Assembly: GCF_044704955.1 (NCBI RefSeq)
Contig: NC_091997.1
Span: forward strand, 5,952,001-6,016,000
Reading direction: 5' to 3'
DNA length: 64,000 bases
Source of the DNA: Pristiophorus japonicus
Lineage: Eukaryota
Part shown: positions 5,926-52,074 of the stretch, piece by piece
How positions within the stretch are numbered: position 1 is the first letter of the stretch
How the letters are laid out: each line of letters opens with the position of its first letter
Program-made: the position numbers and the translations under genes
The notes under the pieces: generated by a model
Databases searched by the model: none
The model's input: the letters and a program-made list of their open reading frames with translations, nothing else
What the model was told of the DNA's origin: nothing

Positions 5926-5946
5926 CCGACCATCACTCCACTTGCA

Positions 5947-7406: not shown

Positions 7407-7500
7407 TGTCTCTGCCTCTTCTATCACTTCTCACAAACACGACTGATGTGAACTCCCGGTCTTCAGTCTCTGATCTGCTACAGCACTCAGAACACCCGCC

Positions 7501-7672
7501 TTATATATTGCACTCCCAGAACTCCAGACACTTCCAGAATTAGCTCAACATTGCTGGGGTTATGACACGTGAGCAGAAAATAACCGAGGTCTCATCTCAG
7601 CCTTGCTTTAAACAAGAATGACTGGGATTCAGTGACACCCACTGGTGCAATTCCAGAGACTTGTGGAATGTA
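7501..7672 (-). promoter_or_regulatory. Heat-shock promoter of copy B
   Basis: TATATAA 7501-7507; HSE-like TTCtgGAAgtGTCtgGAG at ~7518-7540; CACGTG E-box; distal HSE-like array at ~7650-7670. Confidence 0.8.
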
Positions 7673-8273: not shown

Positions 8274-8945
8274 CATCATCATTATCATCATCAGAGGCAG
8301 TCCCTCGGAATCGAGGAAGCCTTGCTTTCACTCTAAAAGTGAGTTCTCAGGTGACTGAGGAGTCCAAGGCGGGAATTACAGTCTCTGTCGCAGGTGGGAC
8401 AGACAATGGTTGAAAGAAAGGGTGGGTGGTGAGTCTGGTTTGCCGCACACTCCTTCCGCTGCCTGCACTTATTTTCTGCCTGCTCTCACCGCCGGGATTC
8501 GAGGTGCTCAGCGCCCTCCCGGATGCTATTCCTCCACTTATGGCGGTCTTTGGCCAGCGTCTCCCAGGTGTCGGTCGGCATGTTGCACAATATCAAGGAG
8601 GCTTCGGGGGTGTCCTTGAAACGTTTCCTTTGCCCAGCTGGGAGTTCCAAGTAGAACGCTTGCGTTGGAGTCTTGTGTCGGGCATACGAACAATATGGCC
8701 CGCCCAACAGAGCTTGTCGAGTGTGGTCAGTGCTTCTGACGTTGGCCTGATCGAGAACACTGACGTTGGTGCGTCTGTCATCCCAGGGGATTTGTAGGCT
8801 CTTGCGGAGACACCGTTGGTGGTATTTCCCGAGCGATTTGACCATAAGCTTGGTGCCAGATTTGAGGTGACCGAAGGCTGCGCTGTTGCACTGGAGGCAG
8901 TGTTGAACCTCGTCGCCAATGTCTGCACTTGCTGATAAATGCAAG
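8274..8945 (-). mobile_element. RTE-clade LINE 3' fragment (inverted paralogue 22580-23258)
   Basis: KYHQRCLRK..QIPWDDRRTNVSVL and WAGHIVRMPDTR motifs; (ATG)n tail. Confidence 0.85.
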
Positions 8946-21498: not shown

Positions 21499-21816
21499 CT
21501 GAGCCAGAAGGAGTTGGGTTCAAGCCCCAGTCTATCGGACTCAGCACATGATTTAGGCTGACACTTCAGTGAGGGAATGCTGCACTGTAGGAGGTGCCAT
21601 CTTTCAGATGGGACATTAAACTCAAGCCCCATCTGCCCTCTTGGGTGGAAATAAAAGATCCCATTACACTATTCAAAGAACAACTGCAGAATTCTCACAG
21701 ATTCCTGGGCAACATTGGCCCCTCAACCAAACCCAACAAAAACAGATTATCTGCTCATTTCTCACATTGTGTGTGTGAGACTCTGCTCGTTGTAACATGT
21801 GCTGCTGCATGTGGCT
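21499..21816 (+). mobile_element. DeuSINE copy truncated at a duplication breakpoint
   Basis: Matches 5947-6265, then homology stops abruptly. Confidence 0.75.
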
Positions 21817-22579: not shown

Positions 22580-23258
22580 TGGCACCAAGCTTATGGTCTA
22601 CAGGGCTGTAGTGATACCCACCCTCCTGTGTGGCTCGGAGACATGGACCATATACAGTAGACACCTGAAGTCACTGGAGAAATACCACCAACGATGTCTC
22701 CGCAAGATCTTGCAAATCCCCTGGGAGGATAGACGCACCAACGTCAGTGTTCTCGATCAGGATAACATCTCTAGCATCGAAGCACTGACCACACGCGACC
22801 AGCTCCGTTGGGTGGGCCACATTGTTCGCATGCCTGAAACAAGACTCCCAAAGCAAGTGCTCTATTCGGAACTCCTACACAGCAAGCAAGCCCCAGGTGG
22901 GCAGAGGAAACATTTCAAGGTCACCCTCAAAGCCTCCCTGATAAAGTGCGACATCCCCACTGACATCTGGGAGACCCTGGCCAAAGTGGTGGAAGAGCAT
23001 CCAGGAGGGAACATCGCCGAGAACATGCAGGAGGGAACATCGCCGAGAACATGCAGAAAACAAGCGCAGGCAGCGGAAGGAGCGTGCAGCAAACCAGACT
23101 CCCCACCCACCCTTTCCTCCTCCGATTGTCTGTCCCACCTGCGACAGAGACTGTGATTCCCACCTTGGACTCCTCAGTCACCTGAGAACTCACTTTTAGA
23201 GTGAAAGCAAGGCTTCCTCGATTTCAAGGGACTGCCTCTGATGATGATAATGATGATG
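22580..23258 (+). mobile_element. RTE-clade LINE 3' fragment
   Basis: ORF 22566-23156: YRAVVIPTLLCGSETW...LRWVGHIVRMPETRLPKQVLYSEL; (ATG)n tail. Confidence 0.88.
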
Positions 23259-23860
23259 TACTTGCGCTGTGAAGAAAGTGATACGGGGCTGTGGAGAGCC
23301 ACCGAGTAGATCACTGAGAACCTGACCACCGTTGGTATTAGCTACACGTGGGTTTTTGCTTAAAATTGCTTGAATGTAAAGTAGATAAACTGTTAGCCAT
23401 ACTATTACTGTTACTTGTACCAGTGTTATTGTTCTTTAGTTAGGATTACCCCGTGAGGATAAACATTATATCCGTCTCTTTTGAATTGTCGGTTCCACAA
23501 GACTGAACTCTGTAAACTGAAGATAAGTCTCACACAAATTAATCAAATTACAAGGGAATTAATGGCCCTCTATTGGGCAGAATCAGAACACCACTTAATT
23601 TAAACCAAACTGATCTGAATTTCATTCTTTCTGATCACTCTGCTCTGCTGTGGTTAAATGTCACTTTAATATCTTGAACATGACTGAAAATAGCAAGCTA
23701 GAAAGTCACTGACCGACTCTTCATTATCTCACAATGTTAGTTGATCGTTCACTAAGTTGAACACATCCACTTCTCAGCAAACACCCCTTTACCACACAGT
23801 CTGCCTTGTACTGGGCTGTCAATCATTTGCCCCTCCCACCTGTGCTGTCACTGGGTGAGT

Positions 23861-24031
23861 ACATTCCACAAGTCTCTGGAATTGCACCAGTGGGTGTCAC
23901 TGAATCCCAGTCATTCTTGTTTAAAGCAAGGCTGAGATGAGACCTCGGTTATTTTCTGCTCACGTGTCATAACCCCAGCAATGTTGAGCTAATTCTGGAA
24001 GTGTCTGGAGTTCTGGGAGTGCAATATATAA
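23861..24031 (+). promoter_or_regulatory. Heat-shock promoter of copy B'
   Basis: Distal HSE-like 23863-23882, E-box CACGTG 23961-23966, proximal HSE ~23992-24014, TATATAA 24025-24031. Confidence 0.8.
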
Positions 24032-24125
24032 GGCGGGTGTTCTGAGTGCTGTAGCAGATCAGAGACTGAAGACCGGGAGTTCACATCAGTCGTGTTTGTG
24101 AGAAGTGATAGAAGAGGCAGAGACA

Positions 24126-24788
24126 ATGCTGAGCTGTCGGGCTGTCCACCCTTCACGTCTGTGCCAGCAGCCTGTGTGCACATTGTGGCCTGTCCCACAC
24201 ACAGTCTTTGAGACGTTTGAATGCAACAGGTGGGAACAGGAGGAAGAAGTGAGAAACAGCATGAACTTCATGAACCGAGTTCTTGGGGAGCTGGCCAAAG
24301 AATTCTGGGAGGGAAGACCAAAATATCAGGAAACCAGACCTGATGACAATGAAGACGGTAAAAGCCAATCAGAGGGCAAGGATGGAGATGGCTTTTCTCT
24401 GTCCCTGGATGTCCAGCAGTTCTCCCCAGAAGAACTGAAGGTGAAAGTACTTGGAAGAAAAGTGCTGGTGACAGGAAAACACGAGAAGAAAAGTGATGAT
24501 GGGAGCGGCTCTTACAGCTACAAATATGAAGAGTTCAGGAGAGAATTGCAGCTGCCAGAAGATGTCGATGCTCAAGCTCTTAACTGCTGTTTGTCACAGG
24601 ACGGTCGGTTAAAGGTTCAAGCCCCACGCCTGGCACTGCCAGCTGTGAATGGACGAACCGTCCCCATCAACATCACCTCTGATACAACAACCGCTCCCCG
24701 ACTAAACCCAGGCAAAGAGGCACAGAAACAGGACAGGGGCCTGGTTGTTGAGAACAAGACACAGGCTGAAAGGAATGAGGACTGTTGA
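24126..24788 (+). CDS. Intact intronless HSP30/HSPB9-like protein, copy B' (220 aa)
   Basis: ATG at 24126, full ACD, near-identical to copy B. Confidence 0.9.
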   Translation: MLSCRAVHPSRLCQQPVCTLWPVPHTVFETFECNRWEQEEEVRNSMNFMNRVLGELAKEFWEGRPKYQETRPDDNEDGKSQSEGKDGDGFSLSLDVQQFSPEELKVKVLGRKVLVTGKHEKKSDDGSGSYSYKYEEFRRELQLPEDVDAQALNCCLSQDGRLKVQAPRLALPAVNGRTVPINITSDTTTAPRLNPGKEAQKQDRGLVVENKTQAERNEDC

Positions 24789-25159
24789 TACTCATTTACA
24801 GTGAACTTGTGCCGCACATCACAGAGAAATTTTATACTGGGGAAATGAGATTCAAGTGAATTTGTGTAAAACTGAGAAAGTGATTCATTCTGTTCTTTCT
24901 GTATGTCTGAAAAATGCTTTCTGTTAACGATATCTTTTCTTGATTACGAGCGTTATATTTTAAGTTGCATATTGTGGGACTAAAGTACAAATCTCTGAAT
25001 GGAATCCATCTATGCTGTATGATTCTATATTCATGAGAATTTTATTATATTTTTGTTGTATTTGCGAATCTCATAACAAAATATATAATTTCTTTCTAAA
25101 CTCATCGCAGCTTTATTTTCCACGAATTTATGTTTAAAAATATATTATTTCTGTATAAA

Positions 25160-25608
25160 GAAAGCAAGAATTTGCATTGATATAGCACCTTCCATGCACT
25201 CAGGATATCTCAAAGTGCTTCACATCCGATTAAATCCTTTTGAAGTGCGGTCATTGTTGCAATGTAGTCACATGCAGCAGCACATGTTACAACGAGCAGA
25301 GTCTCACACAATGTGAGAAATGAGCAGATAATCTGTTTTTGTTGGGTTTGGTTGAGGGGCCAATGTTGGCCAGGAATCTGTGAGAATTCTGCAGCTGTTC
25401 TTTGAATAGTGTCATGGGATCTTTTACTTCCACCCAAGAGGGCAGATGGGGCTTGAGTTTAATGTCCCATCTGAAAGATGGCACCTCCTACAGTGCAGCA
25501 TTCCCTCACTGAAGTGTCAGCCTAAATTATGTGCTGAGTCCGATAGACTGGGGCTTGAACCCAACTCCTTCTGGCTCAGGTTAGAATGCCTCAGCCAAGA
25601 CTGCCACC
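25160..25608 (-). mobile_element. DeuSINE, near full length
   Basis: Reverse complement of 5947-6372 plus additional 5' head sequence. Confidence 0.75.
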
Positions 25609-26025: not shown

Positions 26026-28200
26026 TGAGAGAGCAGCAGCCAATAAAGAGCTGCGTAAAACCTGGAGACTTCACTGAAGGTAAATAGTGAAAGATTGATT
26101 ACACTGGAAGGCAATGGGGAACGAGGGAATGGAACCCAAACATTCTCACTGAAAGAAACAAGGGGGAAGGGAGGAGGGAGCATCTTGAACTGTGGGTTAT
26201 TGGACCATGGGATCCTTCACCACATGTGGCTATTGAGGTAGTGACTAAAACTTCATTTCAAAGTGAATGGGATGGATATTGGATCATGTGATCAGAGGTC
26301 ACATGATCTGCCATCACATGGGCAGCTGTCATGTGATCAAATCTCCAGGAATGCCTCCAAGGAGAGTTGGCAACCTCACTCCTAACATCATAAGTTGGTA
26401 AATGTTTCATTGACTGTATCCATACATACACCTGTCTCCTATGGACTGCAACATGAATCTTTATTCCCTGCTGTGTTTGGCTAGTGTAACAATTAAATAT
26501 ATTCCAGGGTTGACTTAAGTTCATATTGAGAGTTTACAGATTGAACACCATTTAATACTTTACTACTCAATCTCCTGTGGCATTGCTCATGTGTACACTG
26601 GGAGCTGTGATACGGTTACTGATGTTTCCAGTTGTCCTGCAGCAGCCTAAACACGAGCAGTTTGTCTGTTGCTGTAACAGTAAGTTTACTGAAGCAATCT
26701 CACCGCTGACTGACACTGCGAGAATTATTACACAGGGTCGATCAGGAGAGGGCACAGATTTAGGGAAATTGGCAAAAGAACAAGAGGCAACGTGAGGAAA
26801 AACCTTTTTAACTCGACGCGTGGTTAGGATTTGGGTCGCACTGCCTGATAGGCTGATGGAGAGAGATTCAGTCGTAGCCTTCAAAAGGGAATGAGATAAA
26901 TATTTGAAGGAGGTAAAATTGCAGGGATATGGGGAAGAGCAGGAATGGGACTAACTGGATTACTCTTCAAAAGAGACAGCACAGACTCGATGGGCCAAAT
27001 GTCCTCCTGTGCTGTACTATTCTATGATTCTATTACCTTACTGATACTGAAAGATAGAGGCCTCAAGGGCAAAGGATGAGTAACACTATTTAACTAAAAC
27101 TTTAAGAAACATGCTTACACAGCAAGTAACTTTGCTTTTCCTCCCAGTTATTTATATTGAGCAGATAACACCAATGAAAGGGTTACGACCATCCACTAAA
27201 TGAATGGTGGGCCATCTGGTGCCTGTGTTGGAAGACGGGCTGTTATTGCTGGTCATTGTGAGGCTGCAAGGAATGTCTCTGGGCACAGAGATGTACTCGG
27301 CTACTGGTGCAGTGGGTCGGTGCAGCGTTTTCATACGTTTTACCGGACTGAGTTCAGTCTGAGGCAGATCTTTACATATAAGAACATGAGAAATAGGGGC
27401 AAGATTAGGCCAACTGGCCCCTTGAGCCTGCTCTGCCATTTAATGAGATCATGGCTGATCTGATCATGGACACAGCTCCACTTCCCTGCCCGCTCCCCAT
27501 AACCCTTTATTTCCTTATCGCTCAAAAATCTGTCTATCTCCTCCTCAACCTATCTTCAAAAGTCAACCTCCTCATCTCCGGAATCAACTTACTGAACCCT
27601 CTCTGAACAGCCTCCAATGCAAGTATATCCTTCCTTAAATCAGGAGACCAAAACTGTACGCAGTACTCCAGGTGTGGCCTCACCAATACCCTGTATAGTT
27701 GTAGCAGGACTTCTCTGCTTTTATACTCTATCCCCCTTGCAATAAAGACCAACATTCCATTTGCTTTCCTGATTAGTTGCTGTACCTGCATACTAACTTT
27801 TTGAATTCTTTTTCTGCTTTTAAGTTAACCCAAATTCAAATAAGTGCCTTTATTGAGAGTGAAAGGAAGTATGTGGCTAGTTTTTCAATTGTGTAATATC
27901 ATTATTTAACAAACTAACAAGGTGAATCATGGACATCACTGTTCCAAAATGTTTATTGACTCAATACACATATATAAACATAACACAATCTAATGTGAAT
28001 ATTGGCACAGTGAACAATTTCAGATATACAACATGAAAACAAGAATTAATGTTTATTGTTATGACTTCATATCATTGTCTTAACTTATTTCTGCATATAA
28101 ACTTTCTTATATCTTACAAAACGTCATTGTAAATGAGTCTTAAATATCCTTTTTTGCTTCCGCCTCTTTCTTGTTCCTCTCATCCTTTCCACCGTCCTGT
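26026..28200 (-). repeat. Older inverted paralogue of ~1190-3864 (A-type tail and 3' flank)
   Basis: Reverse-complement match, visibly more diverged than the direct duplication; lacks the solo LTR. Confidence 0.88.
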
Positions 28201-28733
28201 TTCTGTGCCTCTTTGCCTGGGTTTAGCCGAGGAGCGGTTGTTGTATCAGAGGTGATGTTGATGGGGACGGTTCGTCCATTCACAGCTGGCAGTGCCAGGC
28301 GTGGGGCTTGAACCTTTAACCGACCGTCCTGTGACAAACAGCAGTTAAGAGCTTGAGCATCGACATCTTCTGGCAGCTGAAATTCTCTCCTGAACTCTTC
28401 ATATTTGTAGCTGTACACCTTCAGTTCTTCTGGGGAGAACCGCTGGACATCCAGGGACAGAGAAAAGCCATCTCCATCCTTGCCCTCTGATTGGCTTTTA
28501 CCGTCTTCATTGTCATCAGGTCTGTTGTCCTGATATTTTGGTCTTCCCTCCCAGAATTCTTTGGCCAGCTCCCCAAGAACTCGGTTCATGAAGTTCATGA
28601 TCTTTCTCACTTCTTCCTCCTGTTCCCACCTGTTGCATTGAAACGGCTCAAAGACTGTGTGTGGGACAGGCCACAATGTGCACACAGGCTGCTGGCACAG
28701 ACGTGAAGGGTGGACAGCCCGACAGCTCAGCAT
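28140..28733 (-). CDS. HSP30-like copy C (197 aa): chimeric, with an in-frame 23-aa deletion in the ACD; possibly a pseudogene
   Basis: ATG at 28733; EELKV|YSYKY junction at 28415/28416; TATA 28828-28834, HSE ~28845-28867; AATAAA on the minus strand at 27952-27957. Confidence 0.8.
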   Translation of the reverse strand: MLSCRAVHPSRLCQQPVCTLWPVPHTVFEPFQCNRWEQEEEVRKIMNFMNRVLGELAKEFWEGRPKYQDNRPDDNEDGKSQSEGKDGDGFSLSLDVQRFSPEELKVYSYKYEEFRREFQLPEDVDAQALNCCLSQDGRLKVQAPRLALPAVNGRTVPINITSDTTTAPRLNPGKEAQKQDGGKDERNKKEAEAKKDI

Positions 28734-29110: not shown

Positions 29111-32100
29111 TAATATGTCCTTACTACACAGTATAAATGCACACGAGGCCCATACTTGAGAGAAGGTCACTCTGTGACCAGTTACCTTTATTAGGAAGAC
29201 CTCAAGAGGCAGATGGTGGGTGGAGCTTCTCCTTTTATATCTGTAAGTCCAGGTTAGGAGTGTCTCCCACAAGTTCGCCCCCCTGTGGTCAGTGTTCTCA
29301 AGGTATACAACTTAGGTCAGCTTATACATGGGTTACAATGACAGTTGAATACATGACATCACCTTCCCCCCAAAGCCTTATTGGGATCACAGGTTGAGTC
29401 TCTCTGGTGGTTTACGCTCCCTTGTAGAGCGCCTGAGTTGGGGCTCCGGTTGTTTGGCGCTGGCCTGAGTGTCTGCTGTTTGCGGTGCCTCAGGCCTGTC
29501 CGGACTGCCCACAATGACTGGGCTCTCCTCCACTTGGTTCCGTTGTTCGGTCACCTGTGGTGGTGTGAACTCTACATCGTGTTCTTCCTCTGCTTCTTCT
29601 ATGGGGCTGCTGATACCTCCTTTTAGTTTGATCCACGTGTTTGCGGCAGATTTGTCCATTGGTAAGTTTAACTACCAAAATCCTATTCCCCTCTTTGGCA
29701 ATCACAGTGCCTGCGAGCCATTTGGGCCCTGCAGTGTAATTAAGGACAAAAACAGGGTCATTGACATCAATACATCGTGCCCTCGCATTCCTGTCATGGT
29801 AGTCACATTGTGACTGACGCCTGCTCTCAACAATTTCTTTCATGGTGGGGTGTATAAGGGATAACCTGGTTTTGAGCATCCTTTTCATTAGCAGCTCTAC
29901 AGGTGGAACCCCTGTGAGCGAGTGTGGTCGGGATCTATAGGCCAACTGGAGGCGTGATAAGCGGCTTTGTAGGGAACTCCCTTGGATTCTGAGCATCCCC
30001 TGTTTGATTATCTGCACTGCTCGTTCTGCCTAGCCGTTTGAGGCCGACTTGAACAGTGCCGTTCTGACATGGTTGATACCATTGCCTGCCATGAAGTCCT
30101 GGAATTCAGTGCTTGTGAAGCATGGGCCATTGTCGCTGACCAAGACATCTGGTAGACCGTGGGTGGCGAACATTGCTCGTAGACTTTCTACCGTGGCAGA
30201 GGATGTGCTTGAATTTAAAATGTCACACTCAATCCATTTAGAGGAGGTGTCCACTACAATCAAAAACATTTTTCCCATGAAAGGACCTGCGTAGTCCACA
30301 TGGATGCGTGACCATGGCTTGGCGGGCCAGGACCAGAGGCTAAGGGGGGCTTCCCTGGGCGCATTGCCCAGCTGGGCACACGTGTTGCATCTGCGAACAC
30401 AAAGTTCCAGGTCTGCATCTATCCCTGGCCACCAAACGTGTGACCTGGCAATTGCCTTCATCATGACAATGCCCGGGTGCTCATTGTGGAGTTCTCTGAT
30501 AAACACCTCTCTGCCCTTCTGGGGCATGACTACTCGGTTTCCCTACAGTAGGCAATCGGCCTGAATCGAGAGTTCATCCTTGCGCCTATGAAACGGTTTA
30601 AACTCCTCAGGGCATGCCCCATACGTGGCTGCCCAGTCCCCATTCAGGACACATTTCTTAACTAAAGACAGTAGCGGGTCTTTATTTGTCCAGACTTTAA
30701 TCTGACGGGCTGTCACAGGTGAGCCTTCGCTTTCGAAAGCTTCAACAGCCATGACCATTTCAGCATCATGCTCAGCTGCCCCCTCAGTGGTGGCTAGTGG
30801 GAGCCTGCTGAGTGCATCGGCACAGTTTTCAGTGCCTGGTCTGTGCCGAATTGTGTAGTCATAGACGGCTCACGTAAGTGCTCACCTCTGTATGTGGGCC
30901 GATGCATTCGCATTTATGGCCTGGTTGTCGGCCAAAAGGGACATTAGGGGTTTGTGATCTGTTTCCAGCTCAAATTTCCTGCCAAACAGGTACTGGTGCA
31001 TTTTTTTTACTGCACATACACATGCTAGCACTTTCTTTTCTACCATCCTGTATCCCCTTTCTGCCTGGGACAGACTCCTGGAGCATAAGCTACCGGCTGT
31101 AACTGACCTTTGACATTCACATGCTGCAACACACACCCGACCCCATAGGACGACGCATCGCACGTTAAAACTAGTTTCTTACACAGGTCATATAACGTTA
31201 ACAGTTTGTTGCAGCATAACAAATTGCGTGCTCTATCTAAAGCCCTTTCCTGGCTGTCCCCCCAGACCCAATCGCGACCTTTGTGTAGGAGCACGTGTAG
31301 CGGCTCTAACAGCGTGTTCAATTTACGAAGAAAGTTGCCAAAATAGTTCAGAAGCCACAGGAACGAACGCAGCTCCATCGTGTTACGGGGACTGTGTGCT
31401 CTCTGGATCGCTTCCATTTTGGATGCAGTAGATCTGATCCCGCCTGCTGCTACCCTCCTCCCCAGGAATTCTAACTCTGGGGCTAAGAAGACGCACTTCG
31501 CCTTTTTCAGTCGCAGCCCTATCCGGTCCAGTCTGCGTAGCACCTCCTCCAGGTTGTGGAGGTGTTCTTCAGTATCGCGACCCGTGATGAGGATGTCGTC
31601 TTGAAAAACCACCGTCCTTGGAATCGACTTGAGGAGGCTTTCCATATTTTGCTGAAAGATCGCGGCGGCCGAGCGAATCCCGAACGGACATCTGTTGTAC
31701 TCAAACAACCCCTTGTGTGTCGTGATGGTGGTCAGCTTCTTCGACTCACTCGCCAGCTCCTGGGTCATGTAAGCTGAGGTCAGGTCCAATTTTGAAAAAG
31801 TTTGCCACCGGATGGTGTTGCAAAGAGGTCCTCTGCTCTCGGTAGCGGGTACTGGTCTTGGAGTGACACCCGATTGATGGTGGCCTTGTAATCGCCACAT
31901 ATTCTGACCGAGCCATCCGCCTTGAGCACCGGCACAATCGGGCTCGCCCAGTCACTGAATTCAACTGGTGAGATGATGCCTTCCCTCAGCAAGCGGTCCA
32001 ATTTGCATTCTATCTTTTCCCGCATCATGTACGGCACCGTTCTGGCCTTGTGGTGTACTGGCCTGGCGTCCGGGTTTATGTGAATCACTACCTTGGCCCC

Positions 32101-33882
32101 CATGAAAGTGCCGATGCCGGGTTGAAATAATGAGTCAAATTTGTCCAGGACCTGTGAGCATGATACTCGCTCGACAGAAGAAATTGCATTGACATCGCCC
32201 CATTTCCAGTACATGACAGCAAGCCAACTCCTCCCCAGTAGTGCGGGACCATCCCCCGGGACAATACAGAGTGGCAACCTGTTCTCCGAATCTTTGTGGG
32301 TCACAACTACCGTGGCACTGCCTAGCACCGGAATTATCTCCTTTGTATATGTCCGTAGCAGTTCGTCAATCGGCAATAATTTTGGCCTCCTGGCCTTGGA
32401 CACCCACAACCTTTCAAACTGTTTGATATTCATCAGGGATTGGCTGGCCCCTGTGTCTAGCTCCATTAATACTGGGATGCCATTGAGGAGCACTTTCATC
32501 ATTATCGGTGGGGTCCTGGTGTATGAACTGTACACGTGCTCCACATGAACTCGCTGAACTTCAGCTTCCAGCGATTTCCCCCAGTGTCCATTTGGCCTCG
32601 TAGGGCTTACATCGGGCCCGTCCTCCTCGTACATCAACCTGGCTGCAGGCTTCCTGCACATACGCGCCAAGTGACCACTGACGTTGCAGTTTCTGCAGGT
32701 ATATTGCTGACATATTGCTGATATCTGCAAGCTCTGGCTGGGTGTTTGCCTCCACACCTCCAGCATGAACTGGAGGCCCCATTGTTGGAAACAAAAGGTC
32801 CATTACCAGTCGATCGTCTCTTACTGTTTCTGTGACTGTCCTAAAACGCACCATTAACAGGTGTTGATGGCCCCATTACTGACCGCATTGTCCATTGCGA
32901 TGCATGAATCGCCGTTCAGCTAGCCATTGTCTCTGTTGAATTCCCCCTTTGGGTTCGACTGCATGCTGGGGCATGTCCGATTGCCCCTGTCTGCCTCGAG
33001 AACTGTGTGCCGCATTAACAATGTTGACTCCCTGGTCGTTTGCTGTATTTGAGCCAAGATTTTTGTCATGCATCATTCTGATCTCTTCCTCCCCTGAGAT
33101 AGTTGTCTGGGCTATCAGAGCCGCCGCTTCCAAGGTCAAGTCTTTGGTCTCAATCAGTTTCCTGAAAACCCCAGTGTGCCCGATGCCCTCAATAAAAAAG
33201 TCTCGCAGCATCTCCGCTCTGCATGCGCCTGGGAACTTACATAGTCTCGCCAGTCGCCGGAGATCTGCCACAAAGTCTGGAACGCTTTGCCCTTCTTGCC
33301 GCCAGTGCGTGTAAAACCGGTGTCTCGCCATGTGCATGCTGCTCCTCGGTTTAAGGTGTTCTCCGATCAACTTACTGAGCTCTTCGAACGTCTTGTCCGC
33401 GGCTTTTCTGGTGCTCGAAGGTCCTTCATCAGGGAGTACATTCTGGATCCACAAACCGTCAGGAGATGAGCCCTGCGTTTGTCGGTCGAATCCTGTCCCA
33501 ACTATTCCTTCATGACAAAACTTTGCAGTAGTCTCTCAATAAAGTCGTCCCAATCATCACCAACACAGTACCTCTCTTCTGTGCTGCTAGTGGCCATGCT
33601 CGCGTGGTTTAAATCCCAGTTTCTCGTCGCCAATAATATGTCCTTACTATACAGTATAAATGCACACGAGGCCCATATTTGAGAGAAGGTCACTCTGTGA
33701 TCAGTTACCTTTATTACCAAGACCTCAAGAGGCAGACGGTGGGTGGAGCTTCCCCTTTTATGCCGGAAAGTCCAGGTTAGGAGTGTCTCCCACAAGTTCG
33801 CCCCCCTGTGGTCAGTGTTCTCAAGGTATACAACTTAGGTCAGCTTATACCATGGGTTACAATGACAGTTGAATACATGACA
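29111..33882 (-). mobile_element. Full-length decayed Ty3/Gypsy LTR retrotransposon
   Basis: LTRs 33634-33882 and 29111-29358; TSD TTAAC; PBS TGGCGACGAG; PPT 29359-29374; gag (ATG 33597), protease ELDTGA, RT FQDD, RNase H CDAS, integrase HHCC plus DYAG/DNG, in PR-RT-RH-IN order. Confidence 0.96.
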
Positions 33883-34856
33883 TTAACCAATAGCAAATAT
33901 AAGCTGTCCAGGTTGAGAACATTCAGTCAGTTTTGATCTGCTTTTTGTGCCATCATTGTAAAGAAAATAATTTGATGTAATTATGAGCTGCAGTGGACTT
34001 GTGATCAGAAAGTGATATTCCGACCAGTTCGATGTGAAATACATAAATATTGTAATTCTATCCCATACAGAGTCATTAATTCCCTCGGTTTGTGTCTGTA
34101 ATTCACTGCAGTGATGACCCATTATTGTCCAGTTCTACAATCTTGTATCAAAACTCTGTGTTCTTTCCCATGTCAGTGGTCTCCTCTGCATACACTGTCA
34201 CTGAACTGTGACTTTGATATTGTTTACAAACTTTAAAGGGTGTTTTGTACAGTGCAGGAAGTATAGTGTTAATTAGTGGTCACTGTCTGCATGAGGAGAC
34301 TAGCAACACCCCAGTGGTTTCGCCCACAGTGAGTTGGAGGATACATATGTTTATCAGTGAAGTGTGAGGGGGCAGCTGCTGTAGGAAGGGTGATATTTAC
34401 AGGAACTTTGCACGATACACAAGACACTCAAATATATTATAGATGTAGAGATTGTGTAAAGGGTTTGGGGAAGGGCAACAAAGATCCCGGAGCAATAAAC
34501 AATCACTAAATATATACCCCTTTCAAAATGTTTTGAATATTTAAAAATAATAAAAGGGAATTGATGAGGTGGATGTGGAGAATTATGTTGTGCAGAATCA
34601 GAATACACCATTATAACCTAAAGAAATCACCAAACTCAGCTCATTTGTCGATTAATCATTAATTTATGGAACACTGCCACCTAGTGGAAAGAGCAGCAGT
34701 TACAGGATTAAAAAATAAGTTCCTTTCTCATTCCTGTCCTTGTAATAAACTGGGGACAGGGAGGGAGGAAATATTCAACAGACAATAATGGCCCAAAATT
34801 GCTGCCTAAGTAAAGGTGAGGCGAATAGCGCTCACCATTATTTATGTGTAAATGCC

Positions 34857-35456: not shown

Positions 35457-38400
35457 GGAGCTAGGAGCTAAATTAAAAAGTAGGACCTCAAAAGTAGTAA
35501 TCTCGGGATTGCTACCAGTGCCACGTGCGAGTCAGAGTAGGAATCGCAGGATAGCGCAGATGAATACGTGGCTTGAGCAGTGGTGCAGCAGGGAGGGATT
35601 CAAATTCCTGGGGCATTGGAACCGGTTCTGGGGGAGGTGGGACCAGTACAAACCGGACGGTCTGCACCTGGGCAGGACCGGAACCAATGTCCTAGGGGGA
35701 GTGTTTGCTAGTGATGTTGGGGAGGAGTTAAACTAATATGGCAGGGGGATGGGAACCAATGCAGGAAGACAGAGGGAAACAAAAAGGAGACAAAAGCAAA
35801 AGACAGAAAGGAGATGAGGAAAAGTGGAGGGCAGAGAAACCCAAGTCAAAGAACAAAAAGGGCCACTGTACAGCAAAATTCTAAAAGGACAAAGGGTGTT
35901 AAAAAAACAAGCCTGAAGGCTTTGTGTCTTAATGCAAGGAGTATCCATAATAAGGTGGATGAATTAACTGTGCAAATAGATGTCAACAAATATGATGTGA
36001 TTGGGATTACGGAGACGTGGCTCCAGGATGATCAGGGCTGGGAACTCAACATCCAGGGGTATTCAACATTCAGGAAGGATAGAATAAAAGGAAAAGGAGA
36101 TGGGGTAGCATTGCTGGTTAAAGAGGAGATTAATGCAATAGTTAGGAAGGACATTAGCTTGGATGATGTGGAATCTATATGGGTAGAGCTGCAGAACACC
36201 AAAGGGCAAAAAACGTTAGTGGGAGTTGTGTACAGACCTCCAAACAGTAGTAGTGATGTTGGGGAGGGCATCAAACAGGAAATTAGGGGTACATGCAATA
36301 AGGGTGCAGCAGTTATAATGGGTGACTTTAATATGCACATAGATTGGGCTAACCAAACTGGAAGCAATACGGTGGAGGAGGATTTCCTGGAGTGCATAAG
36401 GGATGGTTTTCTAGACCAATATGTCGAGGAACCAACTAGGGGGGAAGCCATCTTAGACTGGGTGTTGTGTAACGAGAGAGGATTAATTAGCAATCTCGTT
36501 GTGCGAGGCCCCTTGGGGAAGAGTGACCATAATATGGTGGAATTCTACATTAGGATGGAGAATGAAACAGTTAATTCAGAGACCATGGTCCAGAACTTAA
36601 AGAAGGGTAACTTTGAAGGTATGAGGCATGAATTGGCTAAGATAGATTGGCGAATGATACTTAAGGGGTTGACTGTGGATGGGCAATGGCAGACATTTAG
36701 AGACCGCATGGATGAAATACAACAATTGTACATTCCTGTCTGGCGTAAAAATAAAAAAGGGAAGGTGGCTCAACCGTGGCTATCAAGGGAAATCAGGAAT
36801 AGTATTAAAGCCAAGGAAGTGGCATACAAATTGGCCAGAAATAGCAGCGAATCCGGAGACTGGGAGAAATTTAGAACTCAGCAGAGGAGGACAAAGGGTT
36901 TGATTAGGGCAGGGAAAATGGAGTACGAGAAGAAGCTTGCAAGGAACATTAAGACAGATTGCAAAAGTTTCTATAGATATGTAAAAAGAAAAAGGTTAGT
37001 AAAGACAAACGTAGGTCCCCTGCAGTCAGAATCAGGGAAAGTCATAACGGGGAACAAAGAAATGGCAGACCAACTGAACAAGTACTTTGGTTCGGTATTC
37101 ACTAAGGAGGACACTAACAACCTTCCGGATATAAAAGGGGTCAGAGGGTCTAGTAAGGGGGAGGAACTGAGGGAAATCCTTATTAGTCGGGAAATTGTGT
37201 TGGGGAAATTGATGGGATTGAAGGCCGATAAATCCCCAGGGCCTGATGGACTGCATCCCAGAGTATTTAAGGAGGTGGCCTTCGAAATAGCGGATGCATT
37301 GACAATCATTTTCCAACATTCCATTGACTCTGGATCAGTTCCTATCGAGTGGAGGGTAGCCAATGTAATCCCACTTTTTAAAAAAGGAGGGAGAGAGAAA
37401 ACAGGAAATTATAGACCGGTCAGTCTGACATTGGTAGTGGGTAAAATGATGGAATCAATTATTAAGGATGTCATAGCAGTGCATTTGGAAAGAGGTGACA
37501 TGATAGGTCCAAGTCAGCATGGATTTGTGAAAGGGAAATCATGCTTGACAGATCTTCTGGAATTTTTTGAGGATGTTTCCAGTAGAGTGGACAAGAGAGA
37601 ACCAGTTGATGTGGTATATTTGGACTTTCAGAAGGCTTTCGACAAGATCCCACACAAGAGATTAATGTGCAAAGTTAAAGCACATGGGATTGGGGGTAGT
37701 GTGCTGACGTGTATTGAGAACTGGTTGTCAGACAGGAAGCAAAGAGTAGGAGTAAATGGGTACTTTTCAGAATGGCAGGCAGTGACTAGTGGGGTACCGC
37801 AAGGTTCTGTGCTGGGGCCCCAGCTGTTTACATTGTACATTAATGATTTGGACGAGGGGATTAAATGTAGTATCTCCAAATTTGCGGATGACACTAAGTT
37901 GGGTGGCAGTGTGAGCTGTGAGGAGGATACTATGAGGCTGCAGAGCGACTTGGATAGGTTAGGTGAGTGGGCAAATGCATGGCAGATGAAGTATAATGTG
38001 GATAAATGTGAGGTTATTCACTTTGGTGGTAAAAACAGAGAGACAGACTATTATCTGAATGGTGACAGATTAGGAAAAAGGGAGGTGCAATGAGACCTGG
38101 GTGTCATGGTACATCAGTCATTGAAGGTTGGCATGCAGGTACAGCAGGCGGTTAAGAAAGCAAATGGCATGTTGGCCTTCATAGCGAGGGGATTTGAGTA
38201 CAGGGGCAGGAAGGTGTTGCTACAGTTGTACAGGGCCTTGGTGAGGCCACACCTGGAGTATTGTGTACAGTTTTGGTCTCCTAACCTGAGGAAGGACATT
38301 CTTGCTATTGAGGGAGTGCAGCGAAGGTTCACCAGACTGATTCCCGGGATGGCGGGACTGACCTATCAAGAAAGACTGGATCAACTGGGCTTGTATTCAC

Positions 38401-38806
38401 TGGAGTTCAGAAGAATGAGAAGGGACCTCATAGAAACGTTTAAAATTCTGACGGGTTTAGACAGGTTAGATGCAATGTTGGGGAAGTTCAGAACCATGGG
38501 TCACAATCTAAGGATAAGGGGTAAGCCATTTAGGACCGAGATGAGGAGAAACTTCTTCACCCAGAGAGTGGTGAACCTGTGGAATTCTCTACCACAGAAA
38601 GTTGTTGAGGCCAATTCACTAAATATATTCAAAAAGGAGTTAGATGTAGTCCTTACTACTAGGGGGATCAAGGGGTATGGCGAGAAAGCAGGAATGGAGT
38701 ACTGAAGTTTCATGTTCAGCCATGAACTCATTGAATGGCGGTGCAGGCTCGAAGGGCCGAATGGCCTACTCCTGCACCTATTTTCTATGTTTCTATGTTT
38801 CTATGT
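35457..38806 (+). mobile_element. Long, young CR1 LINE: 3' part of ORF1 (SGNH esterase-like) and ORF2 (APE endonuclease plus RT)
   Basis: ORF1 ...PDGLHL...; ORF2 35814-38093 (LNARS, ITETW, VYRPP, GDFN, SDH, FADD), nonsense TGA at 38091, continuation to 38705; (TTTCTATG)n tail; possible TTAA TSD. Confidence 0.96.
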
Positions 38807-40215: not shown

Positions 40216-41464
40216 ACGAGATTAAGATCTGAATTAATTAAGGGCTGGATGATAAATTGGAGTTACCTGCATTGCGGAGCTCCCTGTCTCAGATACAGTC
40301 AACATATACCAGCTATCTTCCCACAGAGGGCAGAAGGTTCCTGCTCAAGTAGCCAGTATTCAAATGGTAGCTAAACAGTGATTGTTGGAAGACTGCAACA
40401 TTGAAGACCAATCAAATCCGTGCCCAATGTCTATACATCAACACTTCCATCAGGGGTCCACCCTATAGCAAGCAAGAGTGGAAAACTTTGCTGAGTTTTC
40501 CTTTCCAATCCCGGAGTTCTGCAAACATTCCTGGCGCTCCAATTCCTGTCCCACCCGAGACAATAGCTTTCGAGTTATCGCAGGAATCAGCAGACTTAAT
40601 TCAGCAATGTCACTGACAGACCAATACCCTAGTTTTCTGTTTGCAAGGAGTCCCATTATTCAGTATAATGCTTTGTTAGGGTGCCTGGTTTTATCTGTAT
40701 TTCTGATGTATTAATTTTTTCAAAAACTTAAAAATAAATACAAACACACTTAGCCTTCCTTATGCAATTTAAAACCTTTTTCAAGGTCTTCATTTTCTGC
40801 AAGAGTGTTAATGACACAAACATCCATTTTCTTAAACAACAGGGCCACAGAATTAAACTTTTAAATCAATGATTTAACTGACCTCAGTTTCTGGAAGTTT
40901 TGACTAATTTCCAAGCTGTGCATCTGATTTTCTGCACTAAAGTAGTAAATTGAATTTTAACTGCTTAAGTTTGAAAACTGCACTGAACTCCTGAGATATC
41001 CTGGTGTGAAAGGCAGCACAAAGCCATAAATGATTTCACTTCCTGTTTGGCCCACTCACAGACTGTGGGAATTAAACTGAGCCATTTTATACAAAAACTG
41101 ATTTTTTTTTTTATATAAACAATTTTTGAAGTATGAGGGTCTGGTACATTTGCAAAATCGAAAAGAGTCATCAGAGAAAGTGCTCCAGACAAGCTCCTCT
41201 TATTTTTGACGTCAATGAGCGAGCACATTCCAGAACCGTGCCTGCCTGTCACTGGCAGCAGTAATTCCTGTTCAAAGCAAGACTGAGATATCACAATCAA
41301 TTACTGCTCACGTGTCACACGCATTAAACTTCAGTTCATTCTGCAAGGTTATGCACTTCTCAGATTACAAGCCGTGCGTTCTGAACACTCAGAGACTGAA
41401 GATTGGGAGTTTCCAGCTGCCAAGGCTTTCTGAGAACTGCTAAGAGTCATGAGAGGCAGAGAAA

Positions 41465-42040
41465 ATGCAGTGTGGTCACATTTCCCACTCTTGATGCCTG
41501 TGCCAGCAGACTGTGTAAACACCGAGGACTATTCCGCACACCGCCTTTAAGCAGCTTGGGCACAACGTGCGGAAACAGATGGCAGAAGAGAGGAAGAGCT
41601 CGAGCAGCTCTTGCAAAGATTTTTGGAGCAAAAATGAGGAAATCAGGAAACCAGACCTGATGACAATGAAGACGGTAAAAGCCAATCAGAGGGCAAGGAT
41701 GGAGATGGCTTTTCTCTGTCCCTGGATGTCCAGCGGTTCTCCCCAGAAGAACTGAAGGTGAAAGTACTTGGAAGAAAAGTGCTGGTGACAGGAAAACACG
41801 AGAAGAAAAGTGATGATGGGAGCGGCTCTTACAGCTACAAATATGAAGAGTTCAGGAGAGAATTTCAGCTGCTAGAAGATTTGATGCTCAAGCTGTTAAC
41901 TGCTGTTTGTCACAGGACGGTCGGTTAAAGGTTCAAGCCCCACGCCTGGCACTGCCAGCTGTGAATGGACGAACCGTCCCCATCAACATCACCTCTGATA
42001 CAACTGTTACTCTCCAGTCAGAAGTTAGCACAGAGAAGTA
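41465..42040 (+). pseudogene. HSP30-like copy D, pseudogene
   Basis: ATG 41465 (MQCGHISHS*), early stops, frameshift before the ACD and a 1-nt deletion near 41881; ACD DNA 41641-42004 almost identical to the other copies. Confidence 0.9.
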
Positions 42041-43871: not shown

Positions 43872-44535
43872 ATTGGTGCTTGGGTTCACTGACACCTCTC
43901 ACTGATTGGGGCTTGGGTTCACTGACACCTCTCACTGATTGGGGCTTGGGATCACTGACACCGCTCACTGATTGGTGTTTGGGTTCACTGACACCTCTCT
44001 GATTGGTGCTTGGGATCACTGACACCTCTCACTGATTGGGGCTTGGGATCACTGACACCTCTCACTGATTGGTGTTTGGGTTCACTGACACCTCTCTGAT
44101 TGGTGCTTGGGATCACTGACACCTCTCACTGATTGGGGCTTGGGTTCACTGACACCTCTCACTGATTGGGGCTTGGGATCACTGACACCTCTCACTGATT
44201 GGTATTTGGGTTCACTGACACCTCTCTGATTGGTGCTTGGGATCACTGACACCTCTCACTGATTGGTGCTTGGGATCACTGACACCTCTCACTGATTGGG
44301 GCTTGGGTTCACTGACACCTCTCACTGATTGGTGCTTGGGTTCACGGACACCTCTCACCGATTGGTGCTTGGGTTCGCGGACACCGCTCACTTATTGGTG
44401 TTTGGGTTCACCGACACCTCTCACTGATTGGGGCTTGGGTCCACAGCCATCTCTGATTGGTGCTTGAGTTCACTGACGTCTCGGATTGGCGTTTGGGTTC
44501 ACTGACATGTCTCTCTGATTGTTGCTTGGATTCAC
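43872..44535. repeat. 33-bp minisatellite, ~20 units
   Basis: Consensus ATTGG(G/T)GCTTGGG(T/A)TCACTGACACCTCTCACTG; 31-bp variants at units 4, 7 and 11; decays at the right end. Confidence 0.97.
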
Positions 44536-44914
44536 ATCTTGCACCTTTTTGGATAACATTCCATTCAATAAATAATGTTAGACTAATCAAATAAACCCAA
44601 ATTAACAGGCAGCCATGGTATTCACTACAGATTAAACTTCTAAACAGGTAGCGTTTTTACTTAAAAGTGATCAGCTACTTTTTTAAAAAATTGAGCATCT
44701 CAGAATTCCATAAATGTAAATTATAATTACAAATGTCCGAGATCTGTGAAAGTATTCAGTGCAATTTCAGTGTAGAGTATACTGAGACCTATTATTATTC
44801 AGCCAGTAGATGGGAGGTGTGCAGGGCATTCCACCAGAGTCAATTCATGTGAATTATGATAAAATAATAAATTACGCTGCAATTTTAAAGAGGTATTGTT
44901 GCTATTCTAAAAGT

Positions 44915-50003: not shown

Positions 50004-50543
50004 TAAGCTGCATGGCCACACAGTGCTCAGCAGCTTTTAAATCGGAAAAAATGCGCATGCACTGTAAGGGAAGGTGGGATGGGGGGTGGTGTTTGGGGTG
50101 TGTTGTGGTTTCTGTGAGGGGGTCAGGTTCCCTTCTGACAAACTTGAGCGGTTCGAATCGCTCCCCCTCCCTTGGGTTCTGTACTCTGGATTTATTTGGG
50201 GGGTGTGACAAAAGTGCAGAGGACACTGGTTTGATGCAAATAACTTTGGTTTTATTACAGTCAAAGTAATACAGGCTTATTACTCAGTAAGAAAATACAC
50301 AGCCAAACTTACAATCACTCTAATAAAGAACAAGACAAGGAAAGGTACAAAGTCAAACTTACAATCACTCTAATAAAGTACCATACACTACACATTCAAA
50401 GGGGGTTGCAGTAAAATTATACCCCCCACCTCCCAATACCTAATTCTAGCTAGGTTAGACTCCAGGGCAGGGAATTATGCTTACCACTCTTTTTGATAGC
50501 TAATGGTAGATGGTGATGTTCTTCCTTCCTTCAGGACTTCAAG

Positions 50544-50891
50544 ACTTCTTTTTTTAAATTTCAAAATATACTTTATTCATAAAAAAATCTGTACAGTACA
50601 TTCAAAGGCATTTCAATACATTTAGCTCCGGTCAGCAATCCCATACACTATTATTTGGGTGCTGACGGCAGTTCCGTTCGTTACATTTCCTTGTTTTCCA
50701 GTTCAAGTGCAATTCGGTCCAATACGGGATACCTTGTAGTACATTCAAACAAATTACATTTCATGTGTCACTATACAGTAGACTGAATGGGTGACGGTAT
50801 ATTTACATTTTTCTTTTCAACATGCATTTCGCAACAGACCTTGCATTGTACATGGCACTACATAGGTGTTTACAGATCATGGTGCTCCATG
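50544..50891 (-). mobile_element. Polyadenylated retroposed fragment (L1/Tx1-style 3' end)
   Basis: AATAAA and A-tail on the minus strand; 17-bp direct repeat TCCTTCAGGACTTCAAG at 50527-50543 and 50892-50908. Confidence 0.7.
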
Positions 50892-51064
50892 TCCTTCAGG
50901 ACTTCAAGGCTGGAGAGTCTCTCCCCTCTCTCTTCTCTGTTGAAAACAGTGGCCAGTTATACGATTTCAGTGTTCTAATCTTGCCACCAAATCTCTTCAC
51001 AATCCTTTGTATAATTTTGGCGGGCTTGGTTCTTCTTTGTAATATTTTGTCGGGCTCGTTGGAT

Positions 51065-51397
51065 TTTTTAATTTATTTATTCGTTGCCAATCTTTCCAAT
51101 TCTTTGTCAAATCACAAACGCCAGAGCTCACCCTGCACCTGTCAAGGATCACTCTGCGCCAATGCTCTTAGCCAAAAGGCCTAGAGCCACTGCACCGTTC
51201 CTGGAAGTACTGCAATACCAGGTTCGTGCCATGGAGGTGGGTGTGTGCCCCCCCACCCAAACCACCCCACCCACCTCCTATTTCCAAAAAGCATAGGAGA
51301 ACCACCTTCCTGATCCAGGGAGAATCACTTTCTGGTCATGGTTACTCCCCTGTCAGGTCAGTTACGCATGATCTTAGCCAAAAGGCCGAGAAGCGAT
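51065..51397 (-). mobile_element. U2/U1 snRNA-derived mosaic retroposon (SINEU-like)
   Basis: Starts with a perfect U2 nt 1-29; then U1 5'-like, U2 Sm-site-like and U2 3' segments, a second U2 5' copy and an A-rich tail. Confidence 0.8.
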
Positions 51398-52074
51398 GAT
51401 ATGTCTTGGATGGGTTGATCGTCGAAAAACTGTTTCCTGATGGAAATGTTAGTTTGGTAATTGCAATGTCTTTTTGTGTTTAGTTTTTTTGGATACAGGC
51501 TGGATTGGGCCTCTTTGTGATGCATATGTTGAAAATGGTTTGTCCAGACCCATGTTGATGGGGAGCTATCTCTGGGTGATACTGTGATGGTAATGTCTCT
51601 TGTGGAGGAAGAGTTCCAAATATTCATTCTTCCAGACAGGTTACCTCAGTCCTCACACCCAGACAGTTCCAATAATCAAGTGGGCTTCCTTTGTTCCCTA
51701 AGTCCGCCCACAGGCTTGAATTTGTTTTGTAAAAGTTCATAACTCTATTAAAGTTCGTAGTTTCTTCCATAAGCACTTTAGAGTTGCAAACTTTTCGGTA
51801 GATAGTCCCAAATTAAATTTCCTTTCGAATGAGCCCAAACACAGGCCGGGGGGGGGGGTCTAGTGAATTTAGCTCGCTGCGGCACAGTATTTTGAAAGGG
51901 CTGTGCACCCTCAAAAAACATTCAAGGGAACATTACTTACAACTTTGAATTTGTGCCTTCCATGACCTTGAGCTCATCCAGATTCCAAGTGAGCCCATAT
52001 TGCAACTCATACCAAGTTCTGTTTACCCATCACCCCAGTGCTTGCTGACCGATCACAGTTTACTAGGTTAACCG

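What the first reader, a model, noticed from the sequence alone, without database searches (positions are those of the whole stretch)
51065..51397. Mosaic U2-U1-U2 snRNA-derived retroposon: a possible SINEU-like family in a cartilaginous fish
Seen on the minus strand, in order: exact U2 nt 1-29 (51369-51397, ATCGCTTCTCGGCCTTTTGGCTAAGATCA); a U1 5'-like block (51316-51358, ACCTGACAGGGGAGTAACCATGACC..., vs U1 ACCTGGCAGGGGAGATACCATGATC); a second partial U1 block (GATCAGGAAGGTGGTTCTCC); a U2 Sm-site-like TTTTTGG; the U2 3' end (51191-51240, ACCTGGTATTGCAGTACTTCCAGGAACGGTGCA); a second degenerate U2 5' (51163-51188); ~80 nt of unique sequence; and an AATAAATAAATTAAAAAA tail. A GAT triplet flanks both sides. 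The U2 branch-point arm is missing and the U1 5'-splice-site arm is altered. Known: U1/U2-derived SINEs (SINEU) were described in crocodilians, and Keno/Utopia elements target U2 genes. Inference: this is an independently assembled snRNA-mosaic SINE, not a simple pseudogene. Novelty was not verified.
Basis: partly seen in the sequence, partly recalled or inferred. Interest (0 to 1): 0.82.

Follow-up and report, generated by a model that had tools for sequence, protein, structure and literature searches.

The report
Shark snRNA-mosaic retrocopy, SINEU-like
A 334-base insertion in a shark genome is stitched together from pieces of the splicing RNAs U1 and U2 and ends in an A-rich tail, much like the SINEU jumping elements described from crocodilians, but whether it belongs to a many-copy family is still untested.

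Summary
The mosaic is real. On the minus strand, 51397-51064 scores as U2 (62.4 bits), but a U1 5' end replaces the U2 middle and a second U2 5' block follows. Neighbouring HSP30 genes cluster with sawshark proteins, so the shark setting holds. Corrections: the two U1 blocks are one 22-nt-period duplication; the first ~30 nt of the 'unique' part look like a decayed repeat of the element's own U2-U1 junction; the Sm site lacks its invariant A; the target-site duplication is short and has two readings. The parts differ in age: U2 nt 1-29 keeps 19 of 19 invariant positions, while adjacent U2/U1 parts and the internal repeats differ by about 20%. That argues against a one-step chimera and for a copy of a source element built in rounds, as crocodilian SINEU were. 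Copy number, the defining test, could not be run: one copy in 64 kb, no eukaryote genome collection, and protein-proxy searches failed together with their control. No held paper links SINEU to sharks; Repbase and Dfam are unchecked. Verdict: probable SINEU-like retroposon copy (about 0.7), a new variant of a known kind.

The parts
51064..51397 (-). Whole element, 334 bp: U2 5' / U1 5' / partial U1 repeat / U2 3' / older U2-U1 head / unique part / A-rich tail
   Evidence: single copy in the window
51369..51397 (-). U2 nt 1-29 (stem-loop I), starts exactly at U2 nt 1, undecayed
   Evidence: 28 of 29 identical to the Rfam consensus, 19 of 19 invariant positions (by eye)
51363..51368 (-). Decayed U2 nt 30-35; the branch-point recognition arm breaks off here
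   Evidence: 2 of 6 invariant positions changed, model 36-38 deleted
51317..51362 (-). U1 nt ~3-48: altered 5'-splice-site arm and stem-loop I
   Evidence: RF00003 19.8 bits, E 0.0011 in 79 nt; 18 of 23 invariant positions matched as printed
51296..51315 (-). Tandem repeat of U1 nt 28-47 (period 22); keeps the stem-loop I loop motif
   Evidence: 16 of 20 columns identical to the first unit, 3 of 5000 shuffles; 11 of 11 invariant positions (by eye, consensus)
51284..51293 (-). U2 Sm-site-like U run; the invariant A before it is C
   Evidence: alignment
51233..51278 (-). Hairpin in the place of U2 stem-loop III: perfect 11-bp outer stem, enlarged G-rich loop that also fits a four-G-tract pattern (51272-51248)
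   Evidence: -28.5 kcal/mol, z -3.64, 0 of 200 shuffles; pattern scan
51191..51229 (-). U2 stem-loop IV and 3' end, loop motif kept
   Evidence: alignment; fold on its own not above shuffles (30 of 200)
51133..51190 (-). Older, decayed copy of the element's own head (U2 5' plus start of the U1 part)
   Evidence: 44 of 56 columns identical to the head; U2 7-26 hit; junction tests; gap placement differs in MAFFT
51082..51132 (-). About 50 nt of unknown origin (candidate LINE-recognition tail)
   Evidence: no Rfam match of note; no significant likeness to the neighbouring LINE-end fragment (1657 and 1102 of 3000 shuffles as good)
51064..51081 (-). Polyadenylation-signal-like hexamers and short A tail (18 nt)
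   Evidence: sequence; one of 4 such signal-plus-A-run sites in the window
51398..51400 (-). TSD reading 1: flush 3-nt repeat, partner at 51062-51064
   Evidence: chance 0.014
51406..51411 (-). TSD reading 2: 6-nt repeat, partner at 51059-51064, leaving an 8-nt 5' extension (51398-51405)
   Evidence: chance 0.005

Best explanation
This is one retrotransposed copy of a short non-autonomous retroposon of SINEU type in a shark. Shown: it is a U1/U2 mosaic with an A-rich tail, no upstream snRNA promoter motifs and parts of unequal age. Inferred: a source element was built in rounds. A U2 5' end was joined to a U1 5' end; that head was placed again in front of an older head, with a U2 3' half between; U1 stem-loop I was partly duplicated; and nt 1-29 were refreshed late from a normal U2. 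The source is transcribed by RNA polymerase II from an outside promoter (three internal T runs argue against pol III), ends at its own polyadenylation signal, and is copied into new sites by an L1/Tx1-type LINE through target-primed reverse transcription. The fresh U2 start comes either from a template switch onto U2 RNA (Kojima's model) or from a source copy that sits in a U2 gene near the Keno/Utopia site and is read from the U2 promoter. This copy itself is most likely silent and not a working snRNA.
For: Unequal age: 0 of 19 invariant positions changed in U2 1-29 against at least 6 of 29 in the adjacent U2 30-35 plus U1 part (one-sided Fisher 0.039; counts by eye); internal repeats differ by 4 of 20 and 12 of 56 columns. 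The sequence after the second U2 block follows the element's own head (anchored: 2 of 2000 shuffles and 6 of 2000 random segments; 0 of 1500 for 25 nt, 1 of 300 for the U1 part alone) and not normal U2 30-46 (93 of 5000 against 3257 of 5000). Both heads carry the same departure from the consensus at U2 nt 30 and U1 nt 12 in both alignments, so the junction had diverged before it was repeated. Start exactly at U2 nt 1, tail, short flanking repeat. No octamer, proximal-element or 3'-box match beside it (recalled motifs). Crocodilian SINEU show the same moves: recurrent 5' addition of U1/U2 pieces, U1 5' plus U2 3' (SINEU-2), U2 cut after ~32 nt (SINEU-3), partial U1 duplication (SINEU-1G), dimer (SINEU-1D), internal oligo-T, poly(A) (PMC4494074).
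Against: No second copy: none in 64 kb by blastn or nhmmer (best E 1.2). Protein-proxy searches found nothing, though the control found nothing either. The repeat-of-junction test is modest: unanchored it is not significant (410 of 5000), and two of five scoring schemes give only 17 and 29 of 600; two of four apparent shared changes depend on gap placement. TSD is short and ambiguous. No partner LINE was found; the 3' part does not match the neighbouring LINE end. All comparisons use the pan-eukaryote Rfam consensus, not shark U1/U2.
Confidence: 0.7

Rival explanations
1. A one-off or few-copy retrocopy of a transcript from a composite source locus (for example a decayed or variant snRNA cluster), which never spread as a family.
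For: Explains the unequal ages and the tail equally well; only one copy seen. snRNA retrocopies with A tails are common in human (40 of 256 characterised copies, PMC4476161 table 1).
Against: A five-part source with a repeated, previously diverged junction is what SINEU lineages show. A random 64-kb window is far more likely to hold a copy of a family than a unique locus (inference; weakened because the scan selects oddities).
Confidence: 0.16
2. An internally deleted Tx1-type LINE with an snRNA-derived head: the last 50 nt plus tail are the LINE's own 3' end, so it is a non-autonomous LINE rather than a SINE.
For: Four crocodilian Tx1 families carry U1 or U2 heads (PMC4494074). Tail of signal-plus-A type.
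Against: Only about 50 nt are left for LINE sequence; no likeness to the LINE-end fragment 170 bp away or to anything else in the window.
Confidence: 0.07
3. A chimera made in a single reverse-transcription event by several template switches among normal U1 and U2 RNAs, then decayed in place.
For: Double and triple template-switch chimeras are known (PMC4476161 passage).
Against: Needs four or more switches; predicts equal decay of all parts, yet U2 1-29 is unchanged while repeats differ by about 20% (chance of 0 changes in 29 nt at 10% decay 0.047); does not explain changes shared by both heads.
Confidence: 0.05
4. A functional variant snRNA gene (a U1/U2 hybrid) transcribed at this locus.
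For: Passes the U2 gathering score; stem-loops I, III-position and IV can still form.
Against: Branch-point arm and stem-loop II lost, U1 5' arm altered, Sm A lost; no promoter or 3'-box motif nearby; A tail and flanking repeat mark an insertion.
Confidence: 0.02

Closest known systems
SINEU-1 (subfamilies C/H, D, G) of crocodilians, Kojima 2015, PMC4494074
   Same: U2 head added on a U1 head on an older short U2 head, then a unique 3' part and poly(A); partial U1 duplication; dimer-like repeat; internal oligo-T; under 500 bp.
   Different: Here a U2 3' half (Sm, stem-loops III and IV) lies between the heads and the unique part is only about 50 nt; shark, not crocodilian; copy number and sequence homology untested.
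SINEU-2 and SINEU-3 of crocodilians (same paper)
   Same: SINEU-2 joins U1 5' to U2 3' with the junction at nt 53-58; SINEU-3 keeps the first 32 nt of U2 and a later 83 nt. This element joins U1 nt ~3-48 to U2 3' and cuts U2 at about nt 35.
   Different: Both motifs are combined in one unit and followed by a second head. The one 26-nt SINEU-2 stretch printed in the text matches 13 of 26 positions here (by eye), mostly positions invariant in U1, so it shows no special kinship.
Keno (Tx1 clade) and Utopia, U2-gene-targeting LINEs (PMC4640811, PMC6136364)
   Same: They cut U2 genes at nt 37-39, within a few bases of where the U2 head breaks off here; Keno's relatives Tx1-Mar are the proposed SINEU mobilisers.
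   Different: No coding sequence here, and U2 nt 39 onward does not follow the element, so this is not a disrupted U2 gene.
snRNA processed pseudogenes and template-switch chimeras (U6-L1 type; PMC4476161)
   Same: snRNA 5' end at nt 1, A tail, flanking repeat, loss of promoter.
   Different: Those are one snRNA alone or fused to a LINE, SINE or mRNA 3' end in one step; this has five snRNA-derived pieces of unequal age.

Membership tests
SINEU | Head derived from U1 or U2 snRNA | tested here: met
SINEU | Short (<500 bp), non-coding, 3' poly(A) tail | tested here: met
   334 bp; 18-nt A-rich tail, only 6 terminal A; no stop-free frame over 77 codons across it
SINEU | Internal oligo-T, no tRNA/5S/7SL head | tested here: met
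   three runs of 4-5 T; no tRNA in the window; no 5S or SRP hit
SINEU | Many dispersed copies sharing one structure (retrotransposition unit, not a sum of chimeras) | not testable with these tools
   one copy in 64 kb; protein proxies empty together with their control
SINEU | Target-site alteration typical of LINE insertion (TSD, truncation or none) | tested here: inconclusive
   3-nt or 6-nt readings, chance 0.014 and 0.005, both post hoc
SINEU | Target preference shared with a Tx1 partner | not testable with these tools
   single site; host not identified; a separate LINE-end insertion lies 170 bp away in the same orientation
SINEU-1/-2/-3 (the described families) | Sequence homology to the published consensus sequences | not testable with these tools
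   figure 1B and supplements not held; Repbase and Dfam not on hand
SINEU-1/-2/-3 (the described families) | Found only in crocodilians | tested here: not met
   window is shark; the paper reports none outside crocodilians
U2 snRNA gene (RF00004) | Rfam gathering score | tested here: met
   62.4 against 46 bits
U2 snRNA gene (RF00004) | Branch-point arm, stem-loop II and intact Sm site | tested here: not met
   alignment
U2 snRNA gene (RF00004) | Upstream distal and proximal elements, downstream 3' box | tested here: not met
   no match upstream of 51397 within several kb and no 3'-box match in the window (recalled vertebrate motifs)
U1 snRNA gene (RF00003) | Rfam gathering score, full four-way junction | tested here: not met
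   19.8-20.5 against 69.5 bits; only nt ~3-48 present
One-step template-switch chimera | All parts start equal to their source RNAs and decay together | tested here: not met
   unequal divergence and shared changes between heads; support is moderate
Keno/Utopia-disrupted U2 gene | U2 nt 1-38, LINE, then U2 from nt 39 | tested here: not met
   no LINE coding sequence inside; no further U2 match in the window

The most novel reading that the evidence does not exclude
Sharks evolved, apart from crocodilians, a recently active family of U1/U2-mosaic retroposons that converged on the same design: drop the arms that pair with pre-mRNA, keep the protein-binding stem-loops, and keep renewing a U2 5' end because source copies sit inside U2 genes at the Keno site and borrow the U2 promoter. 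That would give a direct test of the open question of how SINEU elements are transcribed.
Probability: 0.25. Interest if true: 0.75.

Novelty: new variant of a known kind. Interest (0 to 1): 0.55.

Why it matters
snRNA-headed SINEs are reported, in the papers held, only from crocodilians, and how they are transcribed without an internal promoter was left open by their describer (PMC4494074). A second lineage in sharks would show that the design recurs, and its undecayed U2 start at nt 1 offers a handle: source copies should lie in or behind U2 genes if they borrow that promoter. Practically, such copies pass the Rfam U2 cut-off and would be miscounted as U2 genes in shark annotations. If it proves single-copy it is an odd pseudogene of little weight.

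Tried and rejected
Copy number by proxy: two stop-free antisense frames of the element were searched in protein sets in the hope of spurious translations of other copies; 0 hits at E 0.001 among 1.84 billion representatives and no candidate in the word search. A control frame over another shark repeat (its high copy number is recalled, not shown) also gave no candidate, so these blanks say nothing. Stop-free runs on each side (82 codons upstream; 28 and 54 downstream) hint at one decayed coding sequence but do not choose between the TSD readings. A shared 3' end with the neighbouring LINE fragment was tested and rejected. The anchored comparison with U2 30-46 was unfair to U2 (first-base mismatch) and was redone unanchored. 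A proximal-element-like match inside the U1 block is at chance level (7 found, 8.5 expected). miRNA, snoRNA and sRNA hits over the element are below their cut-offs and rejected. Whole-element folding is better than shuffles (z -3.16, 1 of 100), but of six sub-folds only the stem-loop III-position hairpin (0 of 200) and stem-loop I (7 of 200) stand out. CpG retention as a clock was considered: the element's CpG ratio equals background (0.41 against 0.39), so it is not used as evidence. The bacterial promoter scan does not apply.

Full report
Observation. The only Rfam match at gathering score in the window is U2 at 51185-51397 (62.4 bits, cut-off 46, E 6.2e-10). Its alignment shows good ends and a foreign middle: nt 1-29 match at 28 of 29 positions and at all 19 invariant ones, nt 30-35 carry two changes, and the branch-point arm and stem-loop II are gone. 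The middle matches the 5' end of U1 (19.8 bits, E 0.0011 in a 79-nt scan; E 0.01 in 1.3 kb; E 0.52 over the whole window; cut-off 69.5). A second U2 5' block follows the U2 3' end (model 7-26, 19 of 20 identical, E 0.28 alone). Counts of invariant positions are by eye from the printed alignments, and the reference is Rfam's pan-eukaryote consensus, not shark U1 or U2.

Setting. The window carries a cluster of small heat-shock genes (Pfam HSP20) and LINE and LTR-type repeats. Two of these proteins fall in a 90% cluster of 7 members; 5 carry a name and all 5 are heat shock protein 30C-like of Pristiophorus japonicus. The window is therefore from that sawshark or a close relative.

The two U1 blocks are a tandem duplication of period 22: 16 of 20 columns are identical (3 of 5000 shuffles as good), and the second unit keeps 11 of 11 invariant positions of U1 nt 28-47 while the first keeps 18 of 23 over nt 3-47. 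The Sm-like run has C in place of the invariant A. A hairpin with a perfect 11-bp stem and an enlarged G-rich loop stands where stem-loop III belongs (z -3.64, 0 of 200 shuffles). The second U2 block is the start of an older copy of the whole head: 44 of 56 columns align with the first head. For the part after the U2 block, the anchored score is reached by 2 of 2000 shuffles and 6 of 2000 random segments, by 0 of 1500 for 25 nt and 1 of 300 for the U1 part alone, and by 1, 1, 1, 17 and 29 of 600 under five scoring schemes. Unanchored, it is not significant (410 of 5000). It fits the element's own head better than normal U2 30-46 (93 against 3257 of 5000). MAFFT places the gaps differently; two departures from the consensus, at U2 nt 30 and U1 nt 12, are shared by both heads in either alignment, two more only in one. 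So the truly unique part is about 50 nt. Its first bases also match U1 consensus nt 48-56 at 9 of 9 (by eye, post hoc, untested), a lead that U1 homology runs a little further.

Insertion marks. The element ends in polyadenylation-like hexamers and six A. The flanking repeat has two readings: 3 nt flush with U2 nt 1 (chance 0.014) or 6 nt with an 8-nt 5' extension (chance 0.005). Both were found after looking. No octamer, proximal-element or 3'-box match lies beside it (motifs recalled). Three internal runs of 4-5 T and the lack of any tRNA, 5S or 7SL part argue against pol III. The host sequence could not be named. A separate 345-bp fragment with its own A tail and a 20-bp direct repeat (one mismatch) lies 170 bp downstream in the same orientation; it resembles a Tx1/L1 3' end (recalled), but shares no significant sequence with the element (1657 and 1102 of 3000).

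What the ages say. A chimera made in one step from normal snRNAs should decay evenly. Here 0 of 19 invariant positions changed in U2 1-29 against at least 6 of 29 next door (one-sided Fisher 0.039), and the internal repeats differ by about 20%, under which 29 unchanged bases have a chance of 0.047. With the shared changes in both heads, this points to a source element that was built in rounds, with a late renewal of its first 29 nt. Each test is modest; together they make the one-step chimera unlikely. They do not separate a many-copy family from a rare retrocopy of a composite locus.

Copy number, the deciding test, stayed open. There is no second copy in 64 kb (blastn; nhmmer best E 1.2), which a family of a few thousand copies in a multi-gigabase genome would also give (inference). 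No eukaryote genome collection was on hand. Searches of two antisense frames in the protein sets were empty, and so was a control on another repeat, so they carry no weight.

Mechanism. Most likely (0.7): a SINEU-type non-autonomous retroposon, transcribed by pol II from an outside promoter, polyadenylated at its own signal and inserted by an L1/Tx1-type enzyme. Mosaic, tail, missing promoter and unequal ages are shown; family status, polymerase and partner are inferred. The renewed U2 start may come from a template switch onto U2 RNA, as Kojima proposed and saw for U1 extensions of SINEU-2, or from a source copy inside a U2 gene: Keno and Utopia cut U2 at nt 37-39, and both heads here break off from U2 at about nt 30-35. 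The second route would also supply the promoter; against it, nt 30-35 are not pristine. Rivals: rare retrocopy of a composite locus (0.16), deleted Tx1 with an snRNA head (0.07), one-step chimera (0.05), working variant snRNA (0.02).

Comparison. It works like SINEU: U2 on U1 on an older U2 head (SINEU-1C/H), U1 5' joined to U2 3' (SINEU-2), U2 cut after about 32 nt (SINEU-3), partial U1 duplication (SINEU-1G) and a dimer-like repeat (SINEU-1D) are all described in PMC4494074. No described family combines them as here, judged from the text alone. Membership of the class is met for head, length, tail and oligo-T, and untested for copy number and partner. Membership of the three described families is untested, as their sequences are in a figure and supplements that are not held; these could change the claim of independent origin. 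The one 26-nt SINEU-2 stretch in the text matches 13 of 26 positions (by eye), with one shared change at an invariant U1 position, which is no evidence of kinship.

Novelty. The paper reports no SINEU outside crocodilians. In the held library, SINEU with shark gave 1 unrelated paper; SINEU with crocodil from 2016 gave 7 and SINEU with SINEs gave 7, none on sharks by title; SINE, U2 snRNA, cartilaginous and retrotransposon gave 1 review, seen as a listing only; Tx1, shark, snRNA and SINE gave 1 review that places SINEU in crocodilians; searches added no shark case by title. Repbase, Dfam and most subscription journals were not searchable, so an existing library entry is not excluded. Papers seen: PMC4494074, parts 1-4 of 5 of the text, no figures or supplements; PMC4476161, passages and section 5; PMC4640811, PMC6136364, PMC5786205, PMC5381603, PMC4758252 and PMC5753468, passages only; a 2019 review asked for by DOI was not held; all others as listings.

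Verdict. A real snRNA mosaic with a layered history, probably a copy of an undescribed or little-noticed SINEU-like family in a shark. New variant of a known kind; interest 0.55, held down by the untested copy number and the unchecked repeat libraries.

Noticed in passing
window 50547-50891 (-), repeats at 50892-50911 and 50527-50546: A separate 345-bp insertion with signal-plus-A tail and a 20-bp direct repeat (17 exact, one mismatch in 20), same orientation as the mosaic and 170 bp from it; looks like a 5'-truncated Tx1/L1 3' end (recalled). Two insertions so close may hint at a preferred target.
   Followed up: partly
window about 50110-51950 (-), flanks of the element: Decayed host sequence with stop-free runs on both sides of the element and, by eye, a purine tract followed by an LTR-like stretch near 50430-50200 with a 25-bp internal repeat (50378/50328). 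No family could be assigned.
   Followed up: partly
window 687-1247, 6747-7406, 16234-16794, 24126-24785, 28140-28733, 41259-42004: Cluster of at least six single-exon HSP30C-like copies on both strands; those at 0.8 and 16.4 kb lack the N-terminal part and abut a CR1-type fragment, the one at 28 kb has an internal deletion, the one at 41-42 kb is only about 78% alike.
   Followed up: partly
window 1-6265 / 15552-21816 and 5946-8839 / 22668-25581: Recent segmental duplications: direct at 97% and inverted at 94%, carrying the HSP30 copies.
   Followed up: no
window 29111-33883 and 9280-13444: Two LTR-bounded elements (repeat pairs at 95.2% and 94.9%) with broken gag/pol-like frames, gypsy-like by eye.
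   Followed up: no
window 35715-38806 (+): Near-complete CR1-type LINE ORF2 with endonuclease and reverse transcriptase domains (792-codon frame); many shorter relatives across the window.
   Followed up: no
window 51248-51272 (-): Four-G-tract pattern overlapping the 5' arm and loop of the hairpin, so quadruplex and hairpin would compete; 11 such patterns occur in the window.
   Followed up: no
window 43872-44536: Minisatellite of period about 64-66.
   Followed up: no
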